Origin: Gammaproteobacteria bacterium
Lineage (GTDB): Bacteria; Pseudomonadota; Gammaproteobacteria; GCA-001735895
Assembly (NCBI GenBank): GCA_030066085.1
Contig: JASJCI010000033.1
Coordinates: 12,570-76,569 of the forward strand
Length of the DNA stretch: 64,000 bases
Reading direction: 5' to 3'
The notes beneath the pieces were generated by a model, which was not told the origin of the DNA, made no database searches, and saw only the letters and a list, made by a program, of their open reading frames with translations. This document shows, piece after piece, positions 37,144 to 42,388 of this stretch; position 1 is the stretch's first letter, and every line of letters begins with the position of its first letter. A program made the translations under genes and the position numbers.

Positions 37144-38049
37144 GTGGAGCCTGTCCTGAAGACACTCGCTCGACCCGTGCTGCTGAACTGGACGCTGTTG
37201 ATGGTGCTGGTTGCACTGTGGGGGACGTCGTTCATGTTCACCGCGATCTCGGTTGCCACCGTCGACCCGGTATCGGTCGTGTTCTACCGGCTCGCGCTCG
37301 GCGCGGTGGTGCTGTCGCTGGTCATCTACGCCCGCGGCGAAACGCTGCCGCTGAACTGGCGCTCATGGAGCGGCTTCCTGGTCATGGCGATTGCCGGCAA
37401 CGCACTGCCCTTCTTCCTGATCTCCTGGGGACAGCAAAGCGTGGATTCGGGGGTTGCCGGCATGATCATGGCGATCATGCCGCTGTTGACGATGGTATTC
37501 GCGCATTACCTCGTCCCCGGGGAGACCCTGAATCGTTACAAGTTCATCGGTTTCCTGCTCGGTATCACCGGCGTGACGCTGCTGCTGGGGCCGGTGTTCG
37601 AGGGCGGCGGACGGGAGTTCTGGAGCGGTTGCGCAATTTTTACCGCGGCCACCTGTTACGCGGTCAACGCGATCCTGATCAAGCGCCTGCCGCGCCACAG
37701 CCCGATGGTTGGCGCCGGTGGCGTGCTGCTGATGGCGACACTGGTGCTGTTTCCGTTCTGGCTCGCCTTCCGCTCCGAGCAGGCCGCGATCAGCCAGGCG
37801 TCGATGTTCTCCGTGATCTGGCTCGGTATCGGTCCAACCGGTATCGCCACGATCGTGCTGTTTGCCGTAATCGATCGCGCCGGACCGACTTTCCTGTCGA
37901 CGATCAACTACCTGATTCCGGTGGTCGCTTTTTTCTGTGGCGCCTGGCTGCTGAACGAAAGCGTTGGCTGGCTGCACTACCTGGCGCTGGTGACGATCCT
38001 GGTCGGCATCGCCGTCACCCGTCGCAGGGCGATTCCTCAGCGGGCATGA
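37144..38049 (+). CDS. DMT (EamA) family transporter
   Basis: LWGTSFMF, GNALPFFLISWGQ and GPTFLSTINYLIPVVA motifs. Confidence 0.88.
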   Translation: MEPVLKTLARPVLLNWTLLMVLVALWGTSFMFTAISVATVDPVSVVFYRLALGAVVLSLVIYARGETLPLNWRSWSGFLVMAIAGNALPFFLISWGQQSVDSGVAGMIMAIMPLLTMVFAHYLVPGETLNRYKFIGFLLGITGVTLLLGPVFEGGGREFWSGCAIFTAATCYAVNAILIKRLPRHSPMVGAGGVLLMATLVLFPFWLAFRSEQAAISQASMFSVIWLGIGPTGIATIVLFAVIDRAGPTFLSTINYLIPVVAFFCGAWLLNESVGWLHYLALVTILVGIAVTRRRAIPQRA

Positions 38050-38140
38050 CACAAGCGCTACCCGCGCAATACCGCGTCCATGGATTTGCTCCGCTCACCT
38101 TGCGCAGCACCGAAATCGGGCAAACGGGCTCGCTTGCAGG

Positions 38141-38222
38141 CGGACATTACTCTATCATGTGCTAGACAAAATTTAGGCAACCAGCGATCCAGGCGCGCTG
38201 ATTGCGCGTTTGATAGTAGACA
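38141..38222 (+). promoter_or_regulatory. Putative autoregulatory operator of the MerR gene (11-bp-phased TnnACA-like repeats)
   Basis: CGGACA 38141, TAGACA 38163 and TAGGCA 38174 (multiples of 11 bp), plus TAGACA 38217. Confidence 0.5.
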
Positions 38223-38243
38223 TTTTTTAAGCTGACGATCAAC

Positions 38244-39209
38244 ATGGCCGCAAATTCCCCGAGTCCCGACCGGGCCGAGGCGCGTTACCGCATCGGTGCC
38301 GTCTGCCGCCTGACCGGAATCAGCCAGCACGTGCTGCGCGTGTGGGAAAAACGCTATGGCGTGGTAGAGCCAATGCGTGGGCCCAACCAGCGGCGGCTGT
38401 ACAGCGAAGCCGACCTCCGACGACTGTCCCTGCTCAAGGCGCTGGTCGACAGCGGCCACGCCATCGGCAGCATCGCCACGCTCGATGACCCGGCTCTCGA
38501 AACCCGCCTGCAGCATTCCCGGGGCCCGCTCAAGACCCGGCAGCCGGTCGAGTTACCGCGCCTGCTGCTGGTCGGGCATTCGCTGGAGCTGCTTGCATCG
38601 GCCTGCGCTGACAGCAGCAGCTATGAGCTGGTCGCCAAACACCATGATCTTGCCGCGGTTGCGCCCGGTACCCGTGCCGATGTCGCGGTGCTGGAGCGCG
38701 CCAACCTTTACCCGGAAACGGCCGCGGAAGCCAACCGTATCGTCACCGATCTGAACCTGCGCCTGCTGGTGCTGGTTTACGACTTTGCGTCACGGGCTAC
38801 CCTCGAACGAATGCGCGGCGAGCGGATCGTTACCGTGCGGGCACCGCTGGATGCAAACTCGCTCGACGCGGTGGTCGCCACCCGTTTCGCGGGCACGCAA
38901 TATCCATCCGACAGCGGCCAGGATTCGCTACCGCTGCCGCCAGCCCGCCAGTTCAGCGATCGGCAACTGGCCCACCTCGCGGCCCAGTCGAGCGAGATCG
39001 CTTGCGAATGCCCCCAGCACCTGGCCCGGATCGTCGGCCATCTCGCCCATTTCGAGGCCTACAGCGCCGATTGCGAATCGCGCTCTCCCGCCGATGCCGC
39101 GCTGCATCGGGAACTGTTCGAAATTACCTCGCGTGCGCGGGCCAGGATGGAACAGGCACTGCAACGGGTAATCGAGGCGGAAGGCCTGTCCGCCGACCCG
39201 GACGACTGA
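38244..39209 (+). CDS. MerR-family regulator, LitR/CarH-like HTH with C-terminal CECPxH domain
   Basis: YRIGAVCRLTGI..LRVWEKRY..P.R...RRLYS..D HTH; C-terminal ACECPQHL..FEAYS..C...DAALH; no B12-binding ExH/WxxG motif seen. Confidence 0.85.
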   Translation: MAANSPSPDRAEARYRIGAVCRLTGISQHVLRVWEKRYGVVEPMRGPNQRRLYSEADLRRLSLLKALVDSGHAIGSIATLDDPALETRLQHSRGPLKTRQPVELPRLLLVGHSLELLASACADSSSYELVAKHHDLAAVAPGTRADVAVLERANLYPETAAEANRIVTDLNLRLLVLVYDFASRATLERMRGERIVTVRAPLDANSLDAVVATRFAGTQYPSDSGQDSLPLPPARQFSDRQLAHLAAQSSEIACECPQHLARIVGHLAHFEAYSADCESRSPADAALHRELFEITSRARARMEQALQRVIEAEGLSADPDD

Positions 39210-39233
39210 TCCCGCCCGATTTCTCCCGCGTAT

Positions 39234-39258
39234 AAAAAAAGCCCCGGCAAGCCGGGGC
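39234..39258 (-). terminator. Rho-independent terminator facing the minus strand
   Basis: GCCCCGGC-TT-GCCGGGGC followed by T7 on the minus strand; no minus-strand protein gene upstream of it. Confidence 0.85.
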
Positions 39259-39349
39259 AACTGTATCTGTATCAGGCTTTGGGCGGAGAGCAGCCGCCCG
39301 AGAGAGTGCGCCGTCCCTGGCGCGGTAACGAGAGAACTCGCATGATCAA

Positions 39350-39366
39350 TGTCTATATATTGTTCA
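39350..39366 (-). promoter_or_regulatory. Operator box A (TGAACAATATATAGACA)
   Basis: Two TnnACA cores 11 bp apart; 15/17 identical to box B, in inverted orientation. Confidence 0.6.
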
Positions 39367-39369
39367 TGC

Positions 39370-39407
39370 TTGACGTAGACAATAAGTGATTCTATTATCT
39401 TCGTCAA
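39370..39407. promoter_or_regulatory. Overlapping divergent sigma70 promoters (quasi-palindrome)
   Basis: Plus: TTGACG(39370-75)-N17-TATTAT(39393-98). Minus: TTGACG(39407-02)-N17-TATTGT(39384-79). Arms 13/15 identical. Confidence 0.7.
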
Positions 39408-39427
39408 ATATATTTTTACGTTTATTG

Positions 39428-39444
39428 TGAACTTTATATAGACA
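39428..39444 (+). promoter_or_regulatory. Operator box B (TGAACTTTATATAGACA)
   Basis: Inverted near-copy of box A, downstream of the plus-strand promoter. Confidence 0.6.
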
Positions 39445-39833
39445 AGCAGCGTAAAAATTGTACCTTGCGGCGAGTGCCGGTCATCAAACAGGACCGATTC
39501 GCATGACGCAAGACGATTAATGGTGCATCGGCCGCTGCTATGGTTTCTAGCCCTCTGGTTGCGCTTGTCAGTAGGCTCGCTACCGTGGCCGAAGCACCGC
39601 CTAAACCCAGGGGCCCGGCGCAGGCAAGAGTTGCCTCGCGCCGGCAACCGCCCGATCTTCGGATCGCGAGAGCCTCGCGGCCAACCGGAATACGTCTCCG
39701 CCGGTCACCCGCTTCCCGCTCCTCCAGCCGGTAACGCTGCGGCTGGTATCACAGGGGCCGGCGGTAGACGTTCACCCTTCTTCGTGACACCCGCGCACCC
39801 GCTGCCGCAAAAACGGCACGGGCCTCGCGCGCG

Positions 39834-39862
39834 TTGACAGCGCCACCGCCGCGGCGTATTTT
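39834..39862 (+). promoter_or_regulatory. Sigma70 promoter of the antiporter gene
   Basis: TTGACA-N17-TATTTT ending 27 nt before ATG 39890; GGAGA RBS. Confidence 0.55.
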
Positions 39863-39889
39863 CGTCAGGGTCGTGCACGCGGAGACGGC

Positions 39890-42388
39890 ATGCCGGTTTC
39901 CGAAGTCATTTTTGTGCTGGTGGTATTGCTGGGCCTTGCCATGCTGGTCACCGGACTGTGCCGCAAGCTTCCCATCCCCTTCACCGTCGTCCTGGTCGTC
40001 ATCGGCGTGCTGCTGGCCGATCTCGCCGAGCACTGGCCGCTGCTGCAGCCGCTGCAGGATTTCGAACTGCGTCCCGAGGTCATGCTGTTCATCTTCCTGC
40101 CGGCGCTGATCTTCGAGTCCGGCTTCGCGCTCGACGCGCGCCAGCTGACCCGCGACCTGCCGGCAGTGCTGATCCTCGCAATTCCCGCCATGCTGATGTC
40201 GACCTTCATCGTTGGCCTCGGTGTCTGGCTCATGCTGGATACCCGCCTGATCGTGGCGCTGGTGTTTGGTGCGTTGATCTCCGCTACCGATCCGGTAGCC
40301 GTCGTGGCGCTGTTCAAGGAACTGGGGGCGCCGAATCGGCTCAACGTACTGGTCGAAGGCGAATCCCTGCTCAACGACGCCACCGCGATCGTCGCCTTCT
40401 CGATCCTGCTGGCAATCGCGATCGAAGGCAGCGGCATTGGCCCGGGAGATATCGACAGCGTCATCCTCGAATTCCTGCGGGTATTCATCGGCGGTGTCCT
40501 GTTCGGTACGCTGCTCGGTTTTGCCGTGTGCGAAATCCTGCATCGCATCCGCGCCAGCCTGAGCGTGATCCTGACCACGTCGATCCTGACCGCGTACGCC
40601 GCCTTCGTCGGCGGCGAACACCTGCTGCACGTGTCCGGCGTCATGGCGGTTGTCGCCGCTGCCGTCGCGCTGCGCCTGTTCGGCATGTCGCGCATTCGCC
40701 AGGATGCCACGCATTCGATCAGCGAGACCTGGGAAGTGATCGCGCTGTCCTGCAACTCGCTGCTGTTCCTGATGGTGGGGCTGTCGGTGCACACCGATAA
40801 CCTGCTGCAAAGACTCGGACCGGTGGCAATCGTAATAGCACTGGTGCTGACCGCTCGCGCGCTGTCGATTTACACGCTGGTGCCGTTGACCACGCGCTGG
40901 TTCAAGCTGCCGCGGGTAACGCTCGGCGAGCGGCATATCATGTGGTGGGGCGGTCTCAAGGGCGGACTTGCGATTGCCGTGGTGCTATCGATTCCGGCGG
41001 ATCTGCCCGAACGCCAGTTCCTGTTCGACCTGACCATCGGCGTGGTGCTGTTTACGCTGCTGGTCAGCGCGCCGACGATCCGCCCGTTGATGCAGCGTCT
41101 CGGCATGAACGAGTTTTCCCGCGGCGAGGAACTCGAACTGCGCACCGCGCTGATCACTGCTCGCCACAAACTCGAGGCCAACCTGGAGCGCCTGCAAAGC
41201 AGCAAGCTGGCGCCGAAGATCGACGAGCATCGATTTCTGCAGGATATCGAAATCGCGTTCGGCTCGACCTGGTACGACGAAGATACCAGCAGCCGCGAAG
41301 ACGACGAGATAGTCGCCATGCTGCGCGCGCACCACGTCGAGCGCAGTGCGCTGAAGCACCTCTACGAAACCGGTTACATCAGCCAGTACGTTTACCTGGA
41401 CATGCTCAATCGTCTTTACGCTACCCGCGAACAGCTGCGCCAGGCCGAAGAGCCGATCGACAGCCACCGGGAAAGCCGGCAGCAGTCGTTTTTCCAGCGC
41501 ATGGAAAAGCGGCTGCTGCGCTGGATGCGCGAAAGACGCTGGACCTCGACGCTGCTGGCGCGCTTCCAGGGCATGCGCGTGGTGCAGCAGGTACAGCGCA
41601 ACCTGGCGCACGTATTGATGTGCGACGCGGTAATCCTGAACCTCGGCGAGCAAAGCGATCTCGACGACGATGCCCGCGCGCACGCGATCGCGATTTACAA
41701 GGAACGTCGTAAACACTACCGCAAGAACCTGAAAATGGCGCGTGCGCGCTTCCCGGTATTCTACCGTCACTACCTCGAACTGCTGGCGAAACGCTCGACC
41801 ATATACAGCGGCTGGAACCACGTGAAATCGGAATTCGAGCACGGCGATCTCGGCGCCAAGGGTTTTGTCGCGACCCAACGCATGGTTGATGTGAAGGTCG
41901 AGCGCCTGCGCCAGTCCGAGCCGCGCATGGCGCGCGAGGAAAACAGCGTCGCCGACATGATCGAGGACCTGGAGCTGTTCAGCGACCTGTCGGACGATGA
42001 TCGCGCCTGGCTGGAAAAAAGCGCGACATCAATCACCTTCCTGCCGGGTGATACGATCATGGGCGCCTACCAGTCCGGCGATACCTTCTACGTCCTGATC
42101 GTCGGTGATGCCGAGGTCTGGCGCACTGACGCGCTGAGCTATCCGCACCACGTCGCCGACCTCACCGACGGGGACATCATCGGCGAATCCGCGCTCCTGG
42201 CCGAGCTCGAGCGTGGGCGCCACATCCGTTCGGCGACGATCAAGGCGGTCAGCGCCTGCATCCTGTTGCGTATTTCGATGCGTTCGATGTTGCGACTGCT
42301 GGAAAAGTACCCCGGCATACGCGACCGCATGCAGCAGATCCACGACGACCGCGGTGCCGACCAGGCACCGAAGATTACCGACGATTGA
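39890..42388 (+). CDS. CPA1 Na+/H+ antiporter with C-terminal cyclic-nucleotide-binding domain
   Basis: FLPALIFESG, ISATDPVAV, EGESLLNDATAIV, WGGLKGGL; C-terminal CNBD with IGESALL...RSATIKA. Confidence 0.9.
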   Translation: MPVSEVIFVLVVLLGLAMLVTGLCRKLPIPFTVVLVVIGVLLADLAEHWPLLQPLQDFELRPEVMLFIFLPALIFESGFALDARQLTRDLPAVLILAIPAMLMSTFIVGLGVWLMLDTRLIVALVFGALISATDPVAVVALFKELGAPNRLNVLVEGESLLNDATAIVAFSILLAIAIEGSGIGPGDIDSVILEFLRVFIGGVLFGTLLGFAVCEILHRIRASLSVILTTSILTAYAAFVGGEHLLHVSGVMAVVAAAVALRLFGMSRIRQDATHSISETWEVIALSCNSLLFLMVGLSVHTDNLLQRLGPVAIVIALVLTARALSIYTLVPLTTRWFKLPRVTLGERHIMWWGGLKGGLAIAVVLSIPADLPERQFLFDLTIGVVLFTLLVSAPTIRPLMQRLGMNEFSRGEELELRTALITARHKLEANLERLQSSKLAPKIDEHRFLQDIEIAFGSTWYDEDTSSREDDEIVAMLRAHHVERSALKHLYETGYISQYVYLDMLNRLYATREQLRQAEEPIDSHRESRQQSFFQRMEKRLLRWMRERRWTSTLLARFQGMRVVQQVQRNLAHVLMCDAVILNLGEQSDLDDDARAHAIAIYKERRKHYRKNLKMARARFPVFYRHYLELLAKRSTIYSGWNHVKSEFEHGDLGAKGFVATQRMVDVKVERLRQSEPRMAREENSVADMIEDLELFSDLSDDDRAWLEKSATSITFLPGDTIMGAYQSGDTFYVLIVGDAEVWRTDALSYPHHVADLTDGDIIGESALLAELERGRHIRSATIKAVSACILLRISMRSMLRLLEKYPGIRDRMQQIHDDRGADQAPKITDD

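What the first reader, a model, noticed from the sequence alone, without database searches (positions are those of the whole stretch)
38141..39450. MerR (LitR/CarH-like) regulator apparently wired to a small RNA through a symmetric divergent promoter and mirrored operators
Seen: an AT-rich island 160 bp after the MerR stop. Its core (39370-39407) is quasi-palindromic and encodes a TTGACG-N17-TATT(A/G)T promoter on both strands. Two inverted 17-bp boxes flank it, each just downstream of a predicted start site (TGAACAATATATAGACA at 39350-66 on minus, TGAACTTTATATAGACA at 39428-44 on plus). Each box is two TnnAC(A/T) cores 11 bp apart. The same TAGACA core, also 11-bp phased, lies upstream of the regulator gene (38163/38174, plus 38217). 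Known: CarH/LitR MerR proteins bind 11-bp direct repeats with a TnnACA core and usually repress carotenoid or photolyase genes. Inference: no such protein targets are adjacent here, so the local output seems to be non-coding RNA, suggesting a light- or stress-sensing repressor-sRNA module. The B12 motif is absent and the C-terminal CECPxH domain is the likely sensor.
Basis: partly seen in the sequence, partly recalled or inferred. Interest (0 to 1): 0.85.

Follow-up and report, generated by a model that had tools for sequence, protein, structure and literature searches.

The report
LitR-like regulator with linked small RNA
A light-sensor-type gene switch in a marine sediment bacterium sits beside a previously undescribed small RNA gene that carries the same likely docking sites as the switch's own promoter, so the switch probably controls that RNA.

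Summary
Both TTGACG-N17-TATTRT promoters and both 17-bp boxes are there, and TGAAC-N6-TAGACA occurs 3 times in the 4.39-Mb genome, twice here.

The regulator's DNA-binding domain is CarH/LitR-type. It has no B12 domain and ends in a helical bundle with invariant CxCPxH...C...H.

The minus-strand product is a conserved, structured ~141-nt sRNA candidate at 39373->39233. It has a sigma-70 promoter, a covarying 5' hairpin, an invariant CU-rich stretch and an intrinsic terminator. It has no Rfam match and occurs only next to this regulator: 11 of 15 regulator-positive and 0 of 46 regulator-negative genomes of the genus.

Tandem 11-bp TnnACA repeats mark the regulator's own promoter, the sRNA promoter/5' end and the plus-strand promoter. 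They recur upstream of homologues in other phyla.

The claim of no protein target is a derived state. In relatives the plus-strand promoter drives hipip, a small ORF and a photolyase-related gene. Here hipip has decayed.

The mirror symmetry and the distal plus promoter are not conserved. No expression or binding data exist, and the signal (light or redox) is inferred.

The parts
38153..38158 (+). -10-like hexamer TATCAT of the regulator's own promoter
   Evidence: Conserved as TATCAT in the 3 closest relatives L108-L110. In the roughly 54%-identical relatives it is mostly TAGAAT-type, 3-4 nt before CTAGACAAAA. No start-site data.
38163..38179 (+). Putative autoregulatory operator: TAGACA-N5-TAGGCA, two 11-bp-phased repeats at the predicted start site
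   Evidence: TAGACA occurs 78 times in 47 non-redundant upstream regions (44 of 47 loci), against 2.5 +/- 1.5 in dinucleotide shuffles. Alignment by eye.
38217..38222 (+). Second, proximal TAGACA about 25 nt before the regulator's ATG
   Evidence: A proximal TAGACA stands 20-45 nt before the start codon in most relatives.
38244..39209 (+). LitR/CarH-like MerR-family regulator, 321 aa: HTH 13-93, flavodoxin/CheY-like domain 106-215, three-helix bundle 239-313 holding CxCPxH...C...H
   Evidence: Pfam finds MerR_1 only. NCBIfam best hit is CarH. Invariant residues come from alignment A1. AlphaFold model has pLDDT 82. Foldseek best is CarH 5c8d, E 5e-5. PDB profile search best is CarH, E 6.8e-12.
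39233..39373 (-). Candidate small RNA (~141 nt). Parts: 5' hairpin SL1 39371-39340, invariant CU-rich stretch (plus-strand AACGAGAG at 39327-39334), hairpin SL2 39322-39309, terminator 39258-39241 plus U7 39240-39234
   Evidence: Covariance model R1 hits G000:C46:51802-51942(-), which maps to 39233-39373. On seed alignment A2, 81% of cells pair against 36-49% for slid controls, and the covariation score is 0.255 against 0.148 +/- 0.015 (0 of 500 shuffles reach it). SL1 has 6 of 7 pairs with changes on both sides. G-U outnumber A-C cells 13 to 5 in SL1 and 9 to 4 in the terminator. No Rfam family reaches its gathering score.
39350..39366 (-). Box A: TGAACA-N5-TAGACA, two tandem 11-bp repeats, at about +7 to +23 of the small RNA in the loop and upper stem of SL1
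   Evidence: In seed alignment A2, 13 of 17 rows have TnnACA at the first repeat's column (read). Both repeats are kept in L108-L110.
39376..39381 (+). Third TAGACA, overlapping the -10 of the small-RNA promoter
   Evidence: repeat D14. The matching TGTCTA just before TCAAG appears in 7 of 26 small-RNA upstream regions (read).
39379..39407 (-). Sigma-70-type promoter of the small RNA: -35 TTGACG at 39407-39402, -10 TATTGT at 39384-39379, predicted start near 39373-39371
   Evidence: In 13 of 26 loci the best TTGACA-N16-18-TATAAT-like match has the same geometry, with the -10 ending 5 nt before model position 1. Mean best score is 8.69 against 7.73 +/- 0.17, with a maximum of 8.23 in 200 shuffles.
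39370..39398 (+). Distal plus-strand sigma-70-like promoter TTGACG-N17-TATTAT
   Evidence: It is kept in L110 and in L015 and L022, but not in L108, L109 or most other relatives. Function is doubtful.
39428..39453 (+). Box B (39428-39444, TGAACT-N5-TAGACA) inside an ECF-like promoter form TGAAC-N17-CGTA (CGTA at 39450-39453). This is the ancestral hipip promoter.
   Evidence: [TA][GAT]A[AT]C-N17-CGTA is found in 24 of 33 hipip upstream regions, against 0.25 in shuffles. In 22 of them it lies 21-46 nt before the ATG. The two-repeat box is found in 23 of 46 downstream regions, against 0 in shuffles.
39504..39641 (+). Decayed hipip remnant (signal-peptide region). Positions 39520-39605 are unusually conserved at the nucleotide level.
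   Evidence: A tblastn search with a relative's HiPIP gives 43% identity over residues 5-50 with one TGA inside. Identity is 95-97% to L109 and L110, whose regulators are only 67-68% identical.
39688..39773 (+). Conserved structured element at the 3' side of the plus-strand unit: long stem P1 39692-39704 with 39758-39771, invariant CCGCTTCCCGCTCC at 39709-39722, hairpin P2 39724-39746
   Evidence: 23 distinct copies were aligned (A4). Model R2 hits 15 of 61 genus genomes, 13 of them among the 15 regulator-positive genomes. No Rfam match.

Best explanation
**What it is**

The gene at 38244-39209 encodes a B12-independent member of the CarH/LitR branch of MerR regulators. It most likely binds tandem 11-bp direct repeats with a TnnACA core (TGAACA/TAGACA). 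Such repeats lie in three places:
- over the predicted start of its own gene;
- over the -10 and the first ~25 nt of a convergently placed ~141-nt small RNA gene on the minus strand;
- in the -35/spacer of the plus-strand promoter. In relatives this promoter drives hipip, a small membrane ORF, a structured RNA element and a photolyase-related gene.

**How it most likely works**

By analogy with CarH/LitR proteins, it represses these promoters until a signal releases it from DNA. The signal would be light or a light-linked redox change, sensed through the flavodoxin-like domain and the CxCPxH...C...H bundle.

The small RNA would then act in trans through its invariant single-stranded CU-rich stretch, which is anti-Shine-Dalgarno-like. 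In this genome's clade hipip has decayed, so the local outputs are the small RNA and a largely non-coding plus-strand transcript.

**Shown in silico**
- the family of the DNA-binding domain;
- conservation and covariation of the small RNA, and its strict linkage to the regulator;
- conservation of the repeat motif at all three promoters and across phyla.

**Inferred**
- binding of the protein to the repeats;
- repression rather than activation;
- the nature of the signal;
- trans action of the RNA.
For: **Regulator**
- CarH is the best NCBIfam hit.
- The best PDB profile hits are 5c8d, 3whp and 2jml, and CarH is the best Foldseek match.
- The invariant Cys/His set comes from the 40-sequence alignment.

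**Small RNA**
- Minus-strand terminator.
- Covariation on 17 seeds, and on 28 distinct sequences with 85% of cells paired and a score of 0.282 against 0.158 +/- 0.013. That second alignment is fitted to the model.
- The G-U excess favours the minus strand.
- Promoter geometry is shared by 13 of 26 loci.
- One copy per genome, always next to the regulator: 11 of 61 genus genomes, all among the 15 regulator-positive ones and none of the 46 others.
- 30 hits in 59 near-clade loci and 0 in 37 distant-clade loci.
- 0 of 18 genomes in three sister genera.

**Operators**
- TAGACA occurs 78 times in 47 regulator-upstream regions against 2.5 expected, and 66 times in 46 downstream regions against 4.0 expected. 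The two-repeat box is in 23 of 46 downstream regions against 0.
- A two-repeat site lies upstream of 17 of 63 distant homologues (Verrucomicrobiota, Beta- and Gammaproteobacteria), against 0.31 +/- 0.52 in shuffles.
- The published CarH operator form is tandem 11-bp repeats, nnnnTnnACAn, overlapping -35 or -10 (PMC9304148, passages).
- LitR-family proteins are repressors (PMC9758184, passages).

**Context pointing to light**
- A DPRP photolyase-related gene lies in the relatives' operon.
- Neighbours of distant homologues include an ECF sigma factor (12), photolyase or DPRP (2 each) and DCC1-like (3), among 150 ORFs scanned of the 167 collected.
- In this genome CTAGACAAAA lies between the intact hipip and a divergent BLUF gene.
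- An Hfq gene is present.
Against: - There are no transcript data, and no RNA run holds this DNA (which is not evidence either way). There are no binding data.
- Relatives are not independent, so the shuffle statistics overstate significance.
- Box A lies inside a covarying RNA hairpin. Its conservation could be RNA-level rather than operator-level.
- A subclade (L034, L037, L039) has a GC-rich SL1 without Box A.
- Only two tandem repeats are seen per site, against three or four for studied CarH proteins.
- Domain order differs from CarH and no chromophore-binding motif is recognisable.
- The photolyase-related gene of this genome (C10:50584) has no TAGACA upstream.
- Box B doubles as a -35-like element, so it could be a promoter feature only.
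- The conserved CU-rich stretch shows no better-than-chance pairing with hipip translation starts: mean z -0.36, n = 13.
Confidence: 0.55

Rival explanations
1. The protein is a classical MerR-type activator, not a repressor. It would sit in an over-long 19-bp spacer of the plus-strand promoter (GTGAAC-N19-TAAAAT, 39427-39457) and twist it into an active form when it senses metal or redox stress through its Cys/His set. The other TAGACA sites would be secondary.
For: In 8 sequences read from the 13-row alignment (G000 plus 7 relatives), a TTGAAC-like hexamer is followed after 19 nt by TAnnnn. The protein is MerR family. It has three invariant Cys and two invariant His, as metal- or redox-sensing MerR proteins do. 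HiPIP is a redox protein.
Against: The final T of the supposed -10 is not conserved; it is C, A, C, A, C, T, G, T in those 8 sequences. The invariant CGTA fits an ECF-like -10 instead. The site is a direct repeat, not the dyad used by MerR activators. In a second group of relatives the box sits 5 bp closer to the CGTA. The DNA-binding domain groups with the CarH, LitR and CarA repressors. Sites at the regulator's and the small RNA's start points suit repression.
Confidence: 0.15
2. The TnnACA boxes are not operators of this regulator. Box B would be the -35/spacer of an ECF-sigma promoter, Box A an RNA loop motif of the small RNA, and the upstream TAGACAAAA a start-site or leader motif. The regulator would be linked to the small RNA only by gene order.
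For: TGAAC-N17-CGTA geometry is found in 24 of 33 hipip promoters. Box A lies within a covarying hairpin. ECF sigma genes are the commonest neighbours of distant homologues.
Against: The same two-repeat motif recurs upstream of the regulator's homologues in other phyla that lack the small RNA and hipip: 17 of 63 against 0.31. In one group of relatives the box is displaced by 5 bp from the -35/-10 frame but is still kept. The motif matches the known CarH repeat form. The motif, the small RNA and the regulator co-occur strictly.
Confidence: 0.12
3. There is no independent minus-strand small RNA. The conserved structure would be the regulator's 3' UTR and bidirectional terminator read on the plus strand, or a DNA-level element.
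For: The hairpin at 39241-39258 directly follows the regulator's stop codon and could also end its mRNA. In L110 the U-run is on the plus side. 5 A-C cells in SL1 would be G-U on the other strand.
Against: In one search, 13 of 17 seeds show the terminator hairpin followed directly by four or more T on the minus strand; 2 more have broken T-rich tails (L037, L142). A strong sigma-70 promoter stands at a fixed distance on the minus strand, reaching 11 of 12 matches in four loci. G-U exceed A-C cells 13 to 5 and 9 to 4. SL1 lies ~130 nt beyond the regulator's terminator.
Confidence: 0.08
4. The island is an iron (Fur) controlled promoter pair and the small RNA is a PrrF/RyhB-type iron-sparing RNA.
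For: A weak Rfam PrrF alignment (20.7 bits against a gathering score of 90, E 0.58) spans promoter and terminator. HiPIP and the photolyase-related protein are Fe-S proteins.
Against: The best match to the 19-nt Fur consensus in the island is 11 of 19. Relatives score 9-14, the same as shuffled sequence. The PrrF hit covers only the -35, an AT-rich stretch and the terminator.
Confidence: 0.02

Closest known systems
CarH/LitR class I (Thermus thermophilus CarH, Bacillus megaterium CarH, Myxococcus CarH/CarA)
   Same: The MerR-type DNA-binding domain is the closest by sequence and fold. The putative operators are tandem 11-bp direct repeats with TnnACA overlapping promoter elements, as published for CarH (PMC9304148, passages). 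Light-response genes lie in the neighbourhood of family members.
   Different: There is no B12-binding domain or motif. Domain order is HTH, then a flavodoxin-like domain, then a helical bundle, and the bundle holds invariant Cys/His. Only two repeats are seen per site. The targets include a small RNA and hipip rather than carotenoid genes.
Class II LitR (PplR1 of Pseudomonas putida, PmlR2 of P. mendocina)
   Same: These are B12-independent LitR-family repressors that control photolyase and related genes, with sites over the -35 and between the start site and the ATG (PMC9758184, passages).
   Different: Their consensus is TGTACA-N12-TGTACA, and they sense light through a partner LOV protein. 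Here the motif is TGAACA-N5-TAGACA and no LOV gene is adjacent. This genome does have three BLUF genes elsewhere.
Class III LitR (Burkholderia multivorans)
   Same: It is described as LitR-family with a C-terminus unlike any known domain, mainly in Burkholderia, and with a light-dependent absorbance change (introduction of PMC9758184; PMC6739363). Our family has full-length homologues of 31-40% identity in Burkholderiales.
   Different: The original paper (PMC6256028) is not held and its protein was not compared here, so membership is a lead only. No small-RNA target is mentioned in the passages I read.
MerR, CueR and SoxR-type activators
   Same: MerR HTH. A 19-bp distance between a -35-like and a -10-like element at Box B. 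Conserved Cys/His.
   Different: The site is a direct repeat rather than a dyad, the -10 is weak, and the DNA-binding domain groups with CarH.
Stress-induced Hfq-type small RNAs with CU-rich seeds (for example the Rhodobacter photooxidative-stress RNAs; recalled, not checked)
   Same: About 140 nt, intrinsic terminator, single-stranded CU-rich stretch, Hfq gene in the genome.
   Different: No Rfam family matches. The weak SorY line (16.3 bits, E 1.3) covers only the 3' third of the candidate RNA. The regulator type is different.

Membership tests
CarH/LitR family (MerR superfamily) | N-terminal MerR-type HTH of the CarH/LitR subtype | tested here: met
   Pfam MerR_1 E 1.6e-16. Best NCBIfam hit is CarH, E 2.1e-11, far below its whole-protein cut-off. 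Best PDB profile hits are CarH 5c8d, 3whp and 2jml.
CarH/LitR family (MerR superfamily) | C-terminal cobalamin-binding module (four-helix bundle plus Rossmann domain with the His motif) | tested here: not met
   No B12-binding Pfam domain at E <= 0.01. The model has a flavodoxin-like domain at 106-215, but H112 next to invariant G111 is not conserved. The protein therefore cannot be filed as class I.
CarH/LitR family (MerR superfamily) | Operators of tandem 11-bp direct repeats with TnnACA overlapping promoter elements | tested here: met
   In silico only. Sites at 38163-38179, 39366-39350 and 39428-39444. Conservation. The definition comes from PMC9304148.
CarH/LitR family (MerR superfamily) | Light-dependent loss of DNA binding | not testable with these tools
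   Needs purified protein and EMSA in dark and light.
Class III LitR | Homology of the C-terminal region to the Burkholderia multivorans protein | not tested
The only lead is Burkholderiales homologues at 31-40% identity.
MerR-type activator promoters | 19-20-bp spacer with a dyad operator between -35 and -10 | tested here: inconclusive
   The 19-bp distance is present in one group of relatives, but the -10 lacks a conserved final T and the site is a direct repeat.
ECF-sigma-type promoters | AAC-containing -35 and CGT-containing -10 about 16-17 nt apart (consensus recalled) | tested here: met
   Motif level only. [TA][GAT]A[AT]C-N17-CGTA occurs in 24 of 33 hipip upstream regions against 0.25 in shuffles. 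The sigma factor is not identified.
Trans-acting Hfq-type small RNA | Own promoter, intrinsic terminator with U-tail, conserved single-stranded seed, Hfq in the genome | tested here: met
   Expression, Hfq binding and targets are not tested.
Rfam families | Score at or above a family's gathering threshold | tested here: not met
   0 matches in the 64-kb window. The best sub-threshold hit is PrrF at 20.7 bits against 90.

The most novel reading that the evidence does not exclude
A B12-independent LitR-type sensor uses a Cys3/His helical bundle and acts through one operator type. It switches on both a trans-acting anti-Shine-Dalgarno small RNA and a hipip plus (6-4)-photolyase-like operon. This would be the first post-transcriptional arm of a LitR/CarH light or redox response, in a globally abundant sediment lineage. 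In that reading HiPIP would serve as redox partner of the photolyase's Fe-S cluster, and the conserved 3' element at 39688-39773 would be a second regulatory RNA of the same module.
Probability: 0.25. Interest if true: 0.8.

Novelty: new variant of a known kind. Interest (0 to 1): 0.62.

Why it matters
**New target class.** LitR/CarH regulators are known to control protein-coding light-response genes. Two full-text searches listed no paper tying them to a small RNA (listings and abstracts only).

**New RNAs in an abundant group.** If the module works as proposed, it adds an RNA-based output to bacterial light or redox sensing. It also gives a named regulator, a defined operator and a defined RNA to test in the Woeseiaceae, a very abundant marine sediment group. 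It yields two RNA structures absent from Rfam.

**A possible role for the photolyase Fe-S cluster.** The function of the Fe-S cluster of prokaryotic (6-4) photolyases is stated as unknown in the abstract of PMC12082625, seen in the listing. The conserved hipip-photolyase pairing hints at an answer.

**Sensor chemistry.** The invariant CxCPxH...C...H bundle is a candidate for the unknown sensing chemistry of B12-independent LitR proteins.

Tried and rejected
**Analyses that led nowhere**
- Rfam found nothing at gathering score in the 64-kb window. At E <= 10 over 39150-39950 there were only terminator- or promoter-driven weak lines.
- The Fur-box idea, raised by the PrrF line, was rejected: 11 of 19 matches, the same as shuffles.
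- hipip as direct target of the small RNA: duplex energies of the CU-rich stretch against hipip translation starts gave a mean z of -0.36 in 13 loci (of 19 tried; the others lacked a recognisable hipip start or anchor). No support.
- A mobile element or MITE reading of the inverted 28-nt arms was rejected. There are no other copies in the genome and synteny is conserved.
- A short ORF inside the small RNA was considered by eye and rejected: there is no conserved frame and length changes are not multiples of three.
- The long ORFs across 39520-39837 enter the conserved 3' element in different frames in G000 and L110 (read). They are not a conserved protein.

**Searches that gave nothing usable**
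- Sequencing runs: no RNA holder is listed. Seven DNA runs of marine sediment metagenomes from two studies hold the stretch, one of them possibly the source.
- The Atlas search of residues 228-321 scored 0.82 and found unnamed clusters only.
- The BLUF-hipip site could not be tested for conservation. The BLUF orthologue was not found in the other 60 genus genomes; only weaker paralogues turned up, in 3 of them.
- The crude ORF clustering and the 300-nt MAFFT run served only as leads.
- Supplementary files of papers were not consulted.


Full report
**1. The observation**

- The promoter scan of 37900-40100 returns TTGACG-N17-TATTAT on the plus strand (39370-39398) and TTGACG-N17-TATTGT on the minus strand (39407-39379). 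That is 4 promoter-like sites against 0.5 +/- 0.8 in shuffles.
- It also returns a minus-strand intrinsic terminator (39258-39241 followed by seven T) just after the regulator's stop codon.
- The two 17-bp boxes are at 39366->39350 (minus) and 39428-39444 (plus).
- In the whole 4,388,651-bp assembly TGAAC-N6-TAGACA occurs three times, two of them here. TGAAC-NN-TATATAGACA occurs only here.
- The boxes are not placed symmetrically about the promoter core (30.5 against 47.5 bp).
- A third TAGACA (39376-39381) overlaps the -10 of the minus promoter.

**2. The regulator**

ORF 38244-39209 (321 aa) has only a MerR HTH in Pfam.
- Its best NCBIfam hit is CarH, over the DNA-binding domain only.
- A profile of 40 homologues finds CarH (5c8d), 3whp and 2jml as the three best solved relatives.
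- The AlphaFold model (pLDDT 82) shows an HTH, a flavodoxin/CheY-like domain (106-215) and a three-helix bundle (239-313). Its best Foldseek match is full-length CarH, E 5e-5. TM-scores are low because the domain arrangement differs.
- C254, E255, C256, P257, H259, C277 and H288 are invariant in the 40 sequences. No B12 domain is detected.
- Homologues of 30-42% identity occur in Verrucomicrobiales, Burkholderiales, Chromatiales and Lysobacterales.
- 150 of their 167 flanking ORFs were scanned. 12 are ECF sigma factors, 7 fasciclin, 6 short-chain dehydrogenases, 3 DCC1-like, 3 amine oxidases, 2 photolyases and 2 DPRP. One homologue carries a source name 'light-induced transcriptional regulator'.
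- A paper's introduction describes five LitR classes and places the B12-less class III mainly in Burkholderia (PMC9758184, passages). That is the likeliest home, but the class III paper is not held, so this is a lead.

**3. What relatives have downstream**

Fourteen of 60 other genomes of the genus encode an orthologue of ~49-55% identity.
- In 12 of these 14 loci the AT-rich island is followed on the plus strand by a ~100-aa TAT-signal protein. A small membrane ORF of 60-66 aa follows in at least 6 loci, and 6 of the 12 continue into a gene beginning ...LRLILGDQLN. The other stored loci end too early or show no such ORF.
- Pfam calls these HIPIP (tested on the G000 paralogue) and DPRP, deoxyribodipyrimidine photolyase-related protein.
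- In the window a relative's HiPIP matches only 39504-39641, at 43% identity over residues 5-50 with one TGA inside.
- An intact hipip lies on contig C45 and a DPRP gene on C10.
- Three closer relatives from metagenomes (L108 73%, L109 68%, L110 67% regulator identity) share the window's layout as far as their contigs reach. L108 keeps Box A but ends before Box B, L109 keeps both, and in L110 Box B is degenerate. L110 also keeps the Na+/H+ exchanger gene downstream.
- So 'no protein target' is a derived state of this small clade.

**4. The minus-strand small RNA**

The stretch between the regulator's stop and the island is conserved. Read on the minus strand it holds, in order:
- a sigma-70 promoter;
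- a 5' hairpin (SL1) whose loop carries Box A;
- an invariant CU-rich stretch, plus-strand AACGAGAG at 39327-39334 in the window (most relatives read UCCUCUCGU);
- a small hairpin CGCC-AGGGAY-GGCG;
- a variable A/U-rich part;
- a terminator.

The evidence for structure and strand:
- On 17 seed sequences (A2), 81% of cells pair against 36-49% when partners are slid. The covariation score is 0.255 against 0.148 +/- 0.015, reached by 0 of 500 shuffles. Six of seven SL1 pairs show changes on both sides.
- G-U cells outnumber A-C cells 13 to 5 in SL1 and 9 to 4 in the terminator, which favours the minus strand.
- RNAalifold proposed instead a helix between the CU-rich stretch and GGGAYG, but it shows no change on both sides in any pair.

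The evidence for distribution, from covariance model R1:
- It finds one copy in each of 11 of 61 genus genomes. Every copy lies next to the regulator gene and on the opposite strand. All 11 are among the 15 regulator-positive genomes.
- The four regulator-positive genomes without a hit each have an explanation:
  - a contig that ends 141 nt after the stop;
  - a 129-nt spacer;
  - a diverged sequence;
  - no hipip downstream.
- It finds nothing in 18 genomes of three sister genera.
- Among fetched loci it hits 30 of 59 near-clade loci (several of them truncated) and 0 of 37 distant-clade loci.
- On the resulting 28 distinct sequences pairing is 85% and the score 0.282 against 0.158 +/- 0.013. 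This alignment is fitted to the model.

The promoter: in 13 of 26 loci the best TTGACA-N16-18-TATAAT-like match upstream has exactly the same geometry, and four loci reach 11 of 12 matches. The mean best score is 8.69 against 7.73 +/- 0.17 in shuffles.

No Rfam family matches. An Hfq gene is present.

**5. The repeat motif as operator**

- Upstream of the regulator gene, 44 of 47 non-redundant near-clade loci hold TAGACA: 78 sites against 2.5 +/- 1.5 in dinucleotide shuffles.
- The typical form is a -10-like hexamer, 3-4 nt, then CTAGACAAAA, plus a second TAGACA 20-45 nt before the ATG.
- In the regions holding the small-RNA 5' end and the hipip promoter there are 66 TAGACA in 46 loci against 4.0 +/- 2.2. 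The two-repeat box occurs in 23 of 46 loci against none in shuffles.
- These loci are related, so the figures measure conservation, not independent events.
- Independent support comes from distant homologues. 17 of 63 non-redundant upstream regions carry a two-repeat site of the same form, against 0.31 +/- 0.52. In several Verrucomicrobiales loci it reads TGAACA-N5-TAGACA.
- The commonest hexamer in those regions is TGAACA, in 36 of 63.
- CarH proteins bind tandem 11-bp direct repeats of the form nnnnTnnACAn that overlap -35 or -10 elements (PMC9304148, passages).
- A class II LitR is a repressor with one site over the -35 and one between start site and ATG (PMC9758184, passages).
- In this genome TAGACAAA occurs 17 times. 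One of the few sites in low-GC intergenic DNA lies between the intact hipip and a divergent BLUF gene.

**6. The plus strand**

- What is widely kept is [TA][GAT]A[AT]C-N17-CGTA, in 24 of 33 hipip upstream regions against 0.25 in shuffles. In 22 of them it lies 21-46 nt before the ATG.
- This resembles ECF-sigma promoters (consensus recalled). In one group Box B supplies the -35. In another the box lies 5 bp further downstream inside the spacer, which argues that box and promoter are separate signals.
- Downstream, 39520-39605 is 95-97% identical to L109 and L110 although the regulators are only 67-68% identical. The few substitutions look synonymous in the hipip frame (read), yet a TGA precedes it and no ATG is conserved. 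I leave this unexplained.
- At 39688-39773 lies a second conserved structure. It has a long, nearly invariant stem, an invariant internal CCGCTTCCCGCTCC and a covarying hairpin (23 distinct copies).
- Model R2 finds that structure in 15 of 61 genus genomes, 13 of them regulator-positive. In relatives it lies between the small ORF and the DPRP gene.

**7. Mechanism and rivals**

The best reading is a CarH/LitR-type repressor that occupies TnnACA repeats at its own start site, at the small RNA's -10 and early transcribed region, and in the hipip-type promoter, and that leaves them on a signal.
- Binding, direction of control and signal are inferred.
- Light is suggested by the family, the DPRP gene, the BLUF-hipip site and the neighbours of distant homologues.
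- Redox or metal sensing through the Cys/His bundle is equally compatible.
- Rivals are MerR-type activation at a 19-bp spacer, promoter or RNA motifs unrelated to the regulator, a 3' UTR reading, and Fur control. Fur control was tested and rejected.

**8. Comparison and novelty**

The module works like a LitR/CarH repressor-operator system. It fails the B12-domain criterion of class I and has a different operator from class II.
- Two full-text searches listed no paper linking CarH/LitR to a small RNA, or describing small RNAs in Woeseiaceae. I saw listings and abstracts only.
- I rate it a new variant of a known kind, with two RNA structures not in Rfam.

**9. Limits**

- There are no expression data. 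No RNA run holds the stretch, which is not evidence either way.
- All genomes are metagenome-assembled and many loci are truncated.
- Statistics across relatives overstate independence.

Noticed in passing
window 39688-39773 (+): Conserved structured element: a long, nearly invariant stem, an invariant CCGCTTCCCGCTCC and a covarying hairpin. It is found in 15 of 61 genus genomes, 13 of them regulator-positive, and has no Rfam match. It may be a complex terminator, a 3'-derived small RNA or a cis-regulatory element before the DPRP gene.
   Followed up: partly
window 39520-39605 (+): A stretch derived from the hipip signal-peptide region is 95-97% identical in L109 and L110, although the neighbouring regulators are only 67-68% identical. 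Substitutions look synonymous in the hipip frame, but there is a TGA at 39504 and no conserved start codon. Unexplained.
   Followed up: partly
G000:C45:3869-5044 (locus L025): The intact hipip (minus strand) is divergent from a BLUF blue-light sensor gene (Pfam E 2.7e-28), with CTAGACAAAA between them. The genome has three BLUF genes.
   Followed up: partly
G000:C16:76858-76877: TTAACT-N5-TAGACA lies directly before the ATG of an ORF with a LysR-like N-terminus (name by eye, not scanned), in an AT-rich divergent region. It is a possible further regulon member.
   Followed up: no
G000:C44:91185-91201: Near-copy of the box (TGAACTCTATATAGAGA) between two minus-strand genes in a lower-GC stretch of contig C44. 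It was not examined further.
   Followed up: no
window 39890-42388 (+): The next gene is a Na+/H+ exchanger fused to a cyclic-nucleotide-binding domain (Pfam). It has its own TTGACA-N17-TATTTT promoter at 39834-39862, and the same neighbour is present in L110.
   Followed up: no
loci L009-L022, hipip operons of relatives: A 60-66-aa single-helix membrane ORF follows hipip in at least 6 loci. It has no family assignment, and its conserved pairing with hipip and the DPRP gene may be functional.
   Followed up: no
G067 and G006 (genus genomes): Model R2 hits the 39688-39773-type element in two genomes where the regulator was not found with the protein query. G067 is 99% complete and G006 74% complete.
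   Followed up: no
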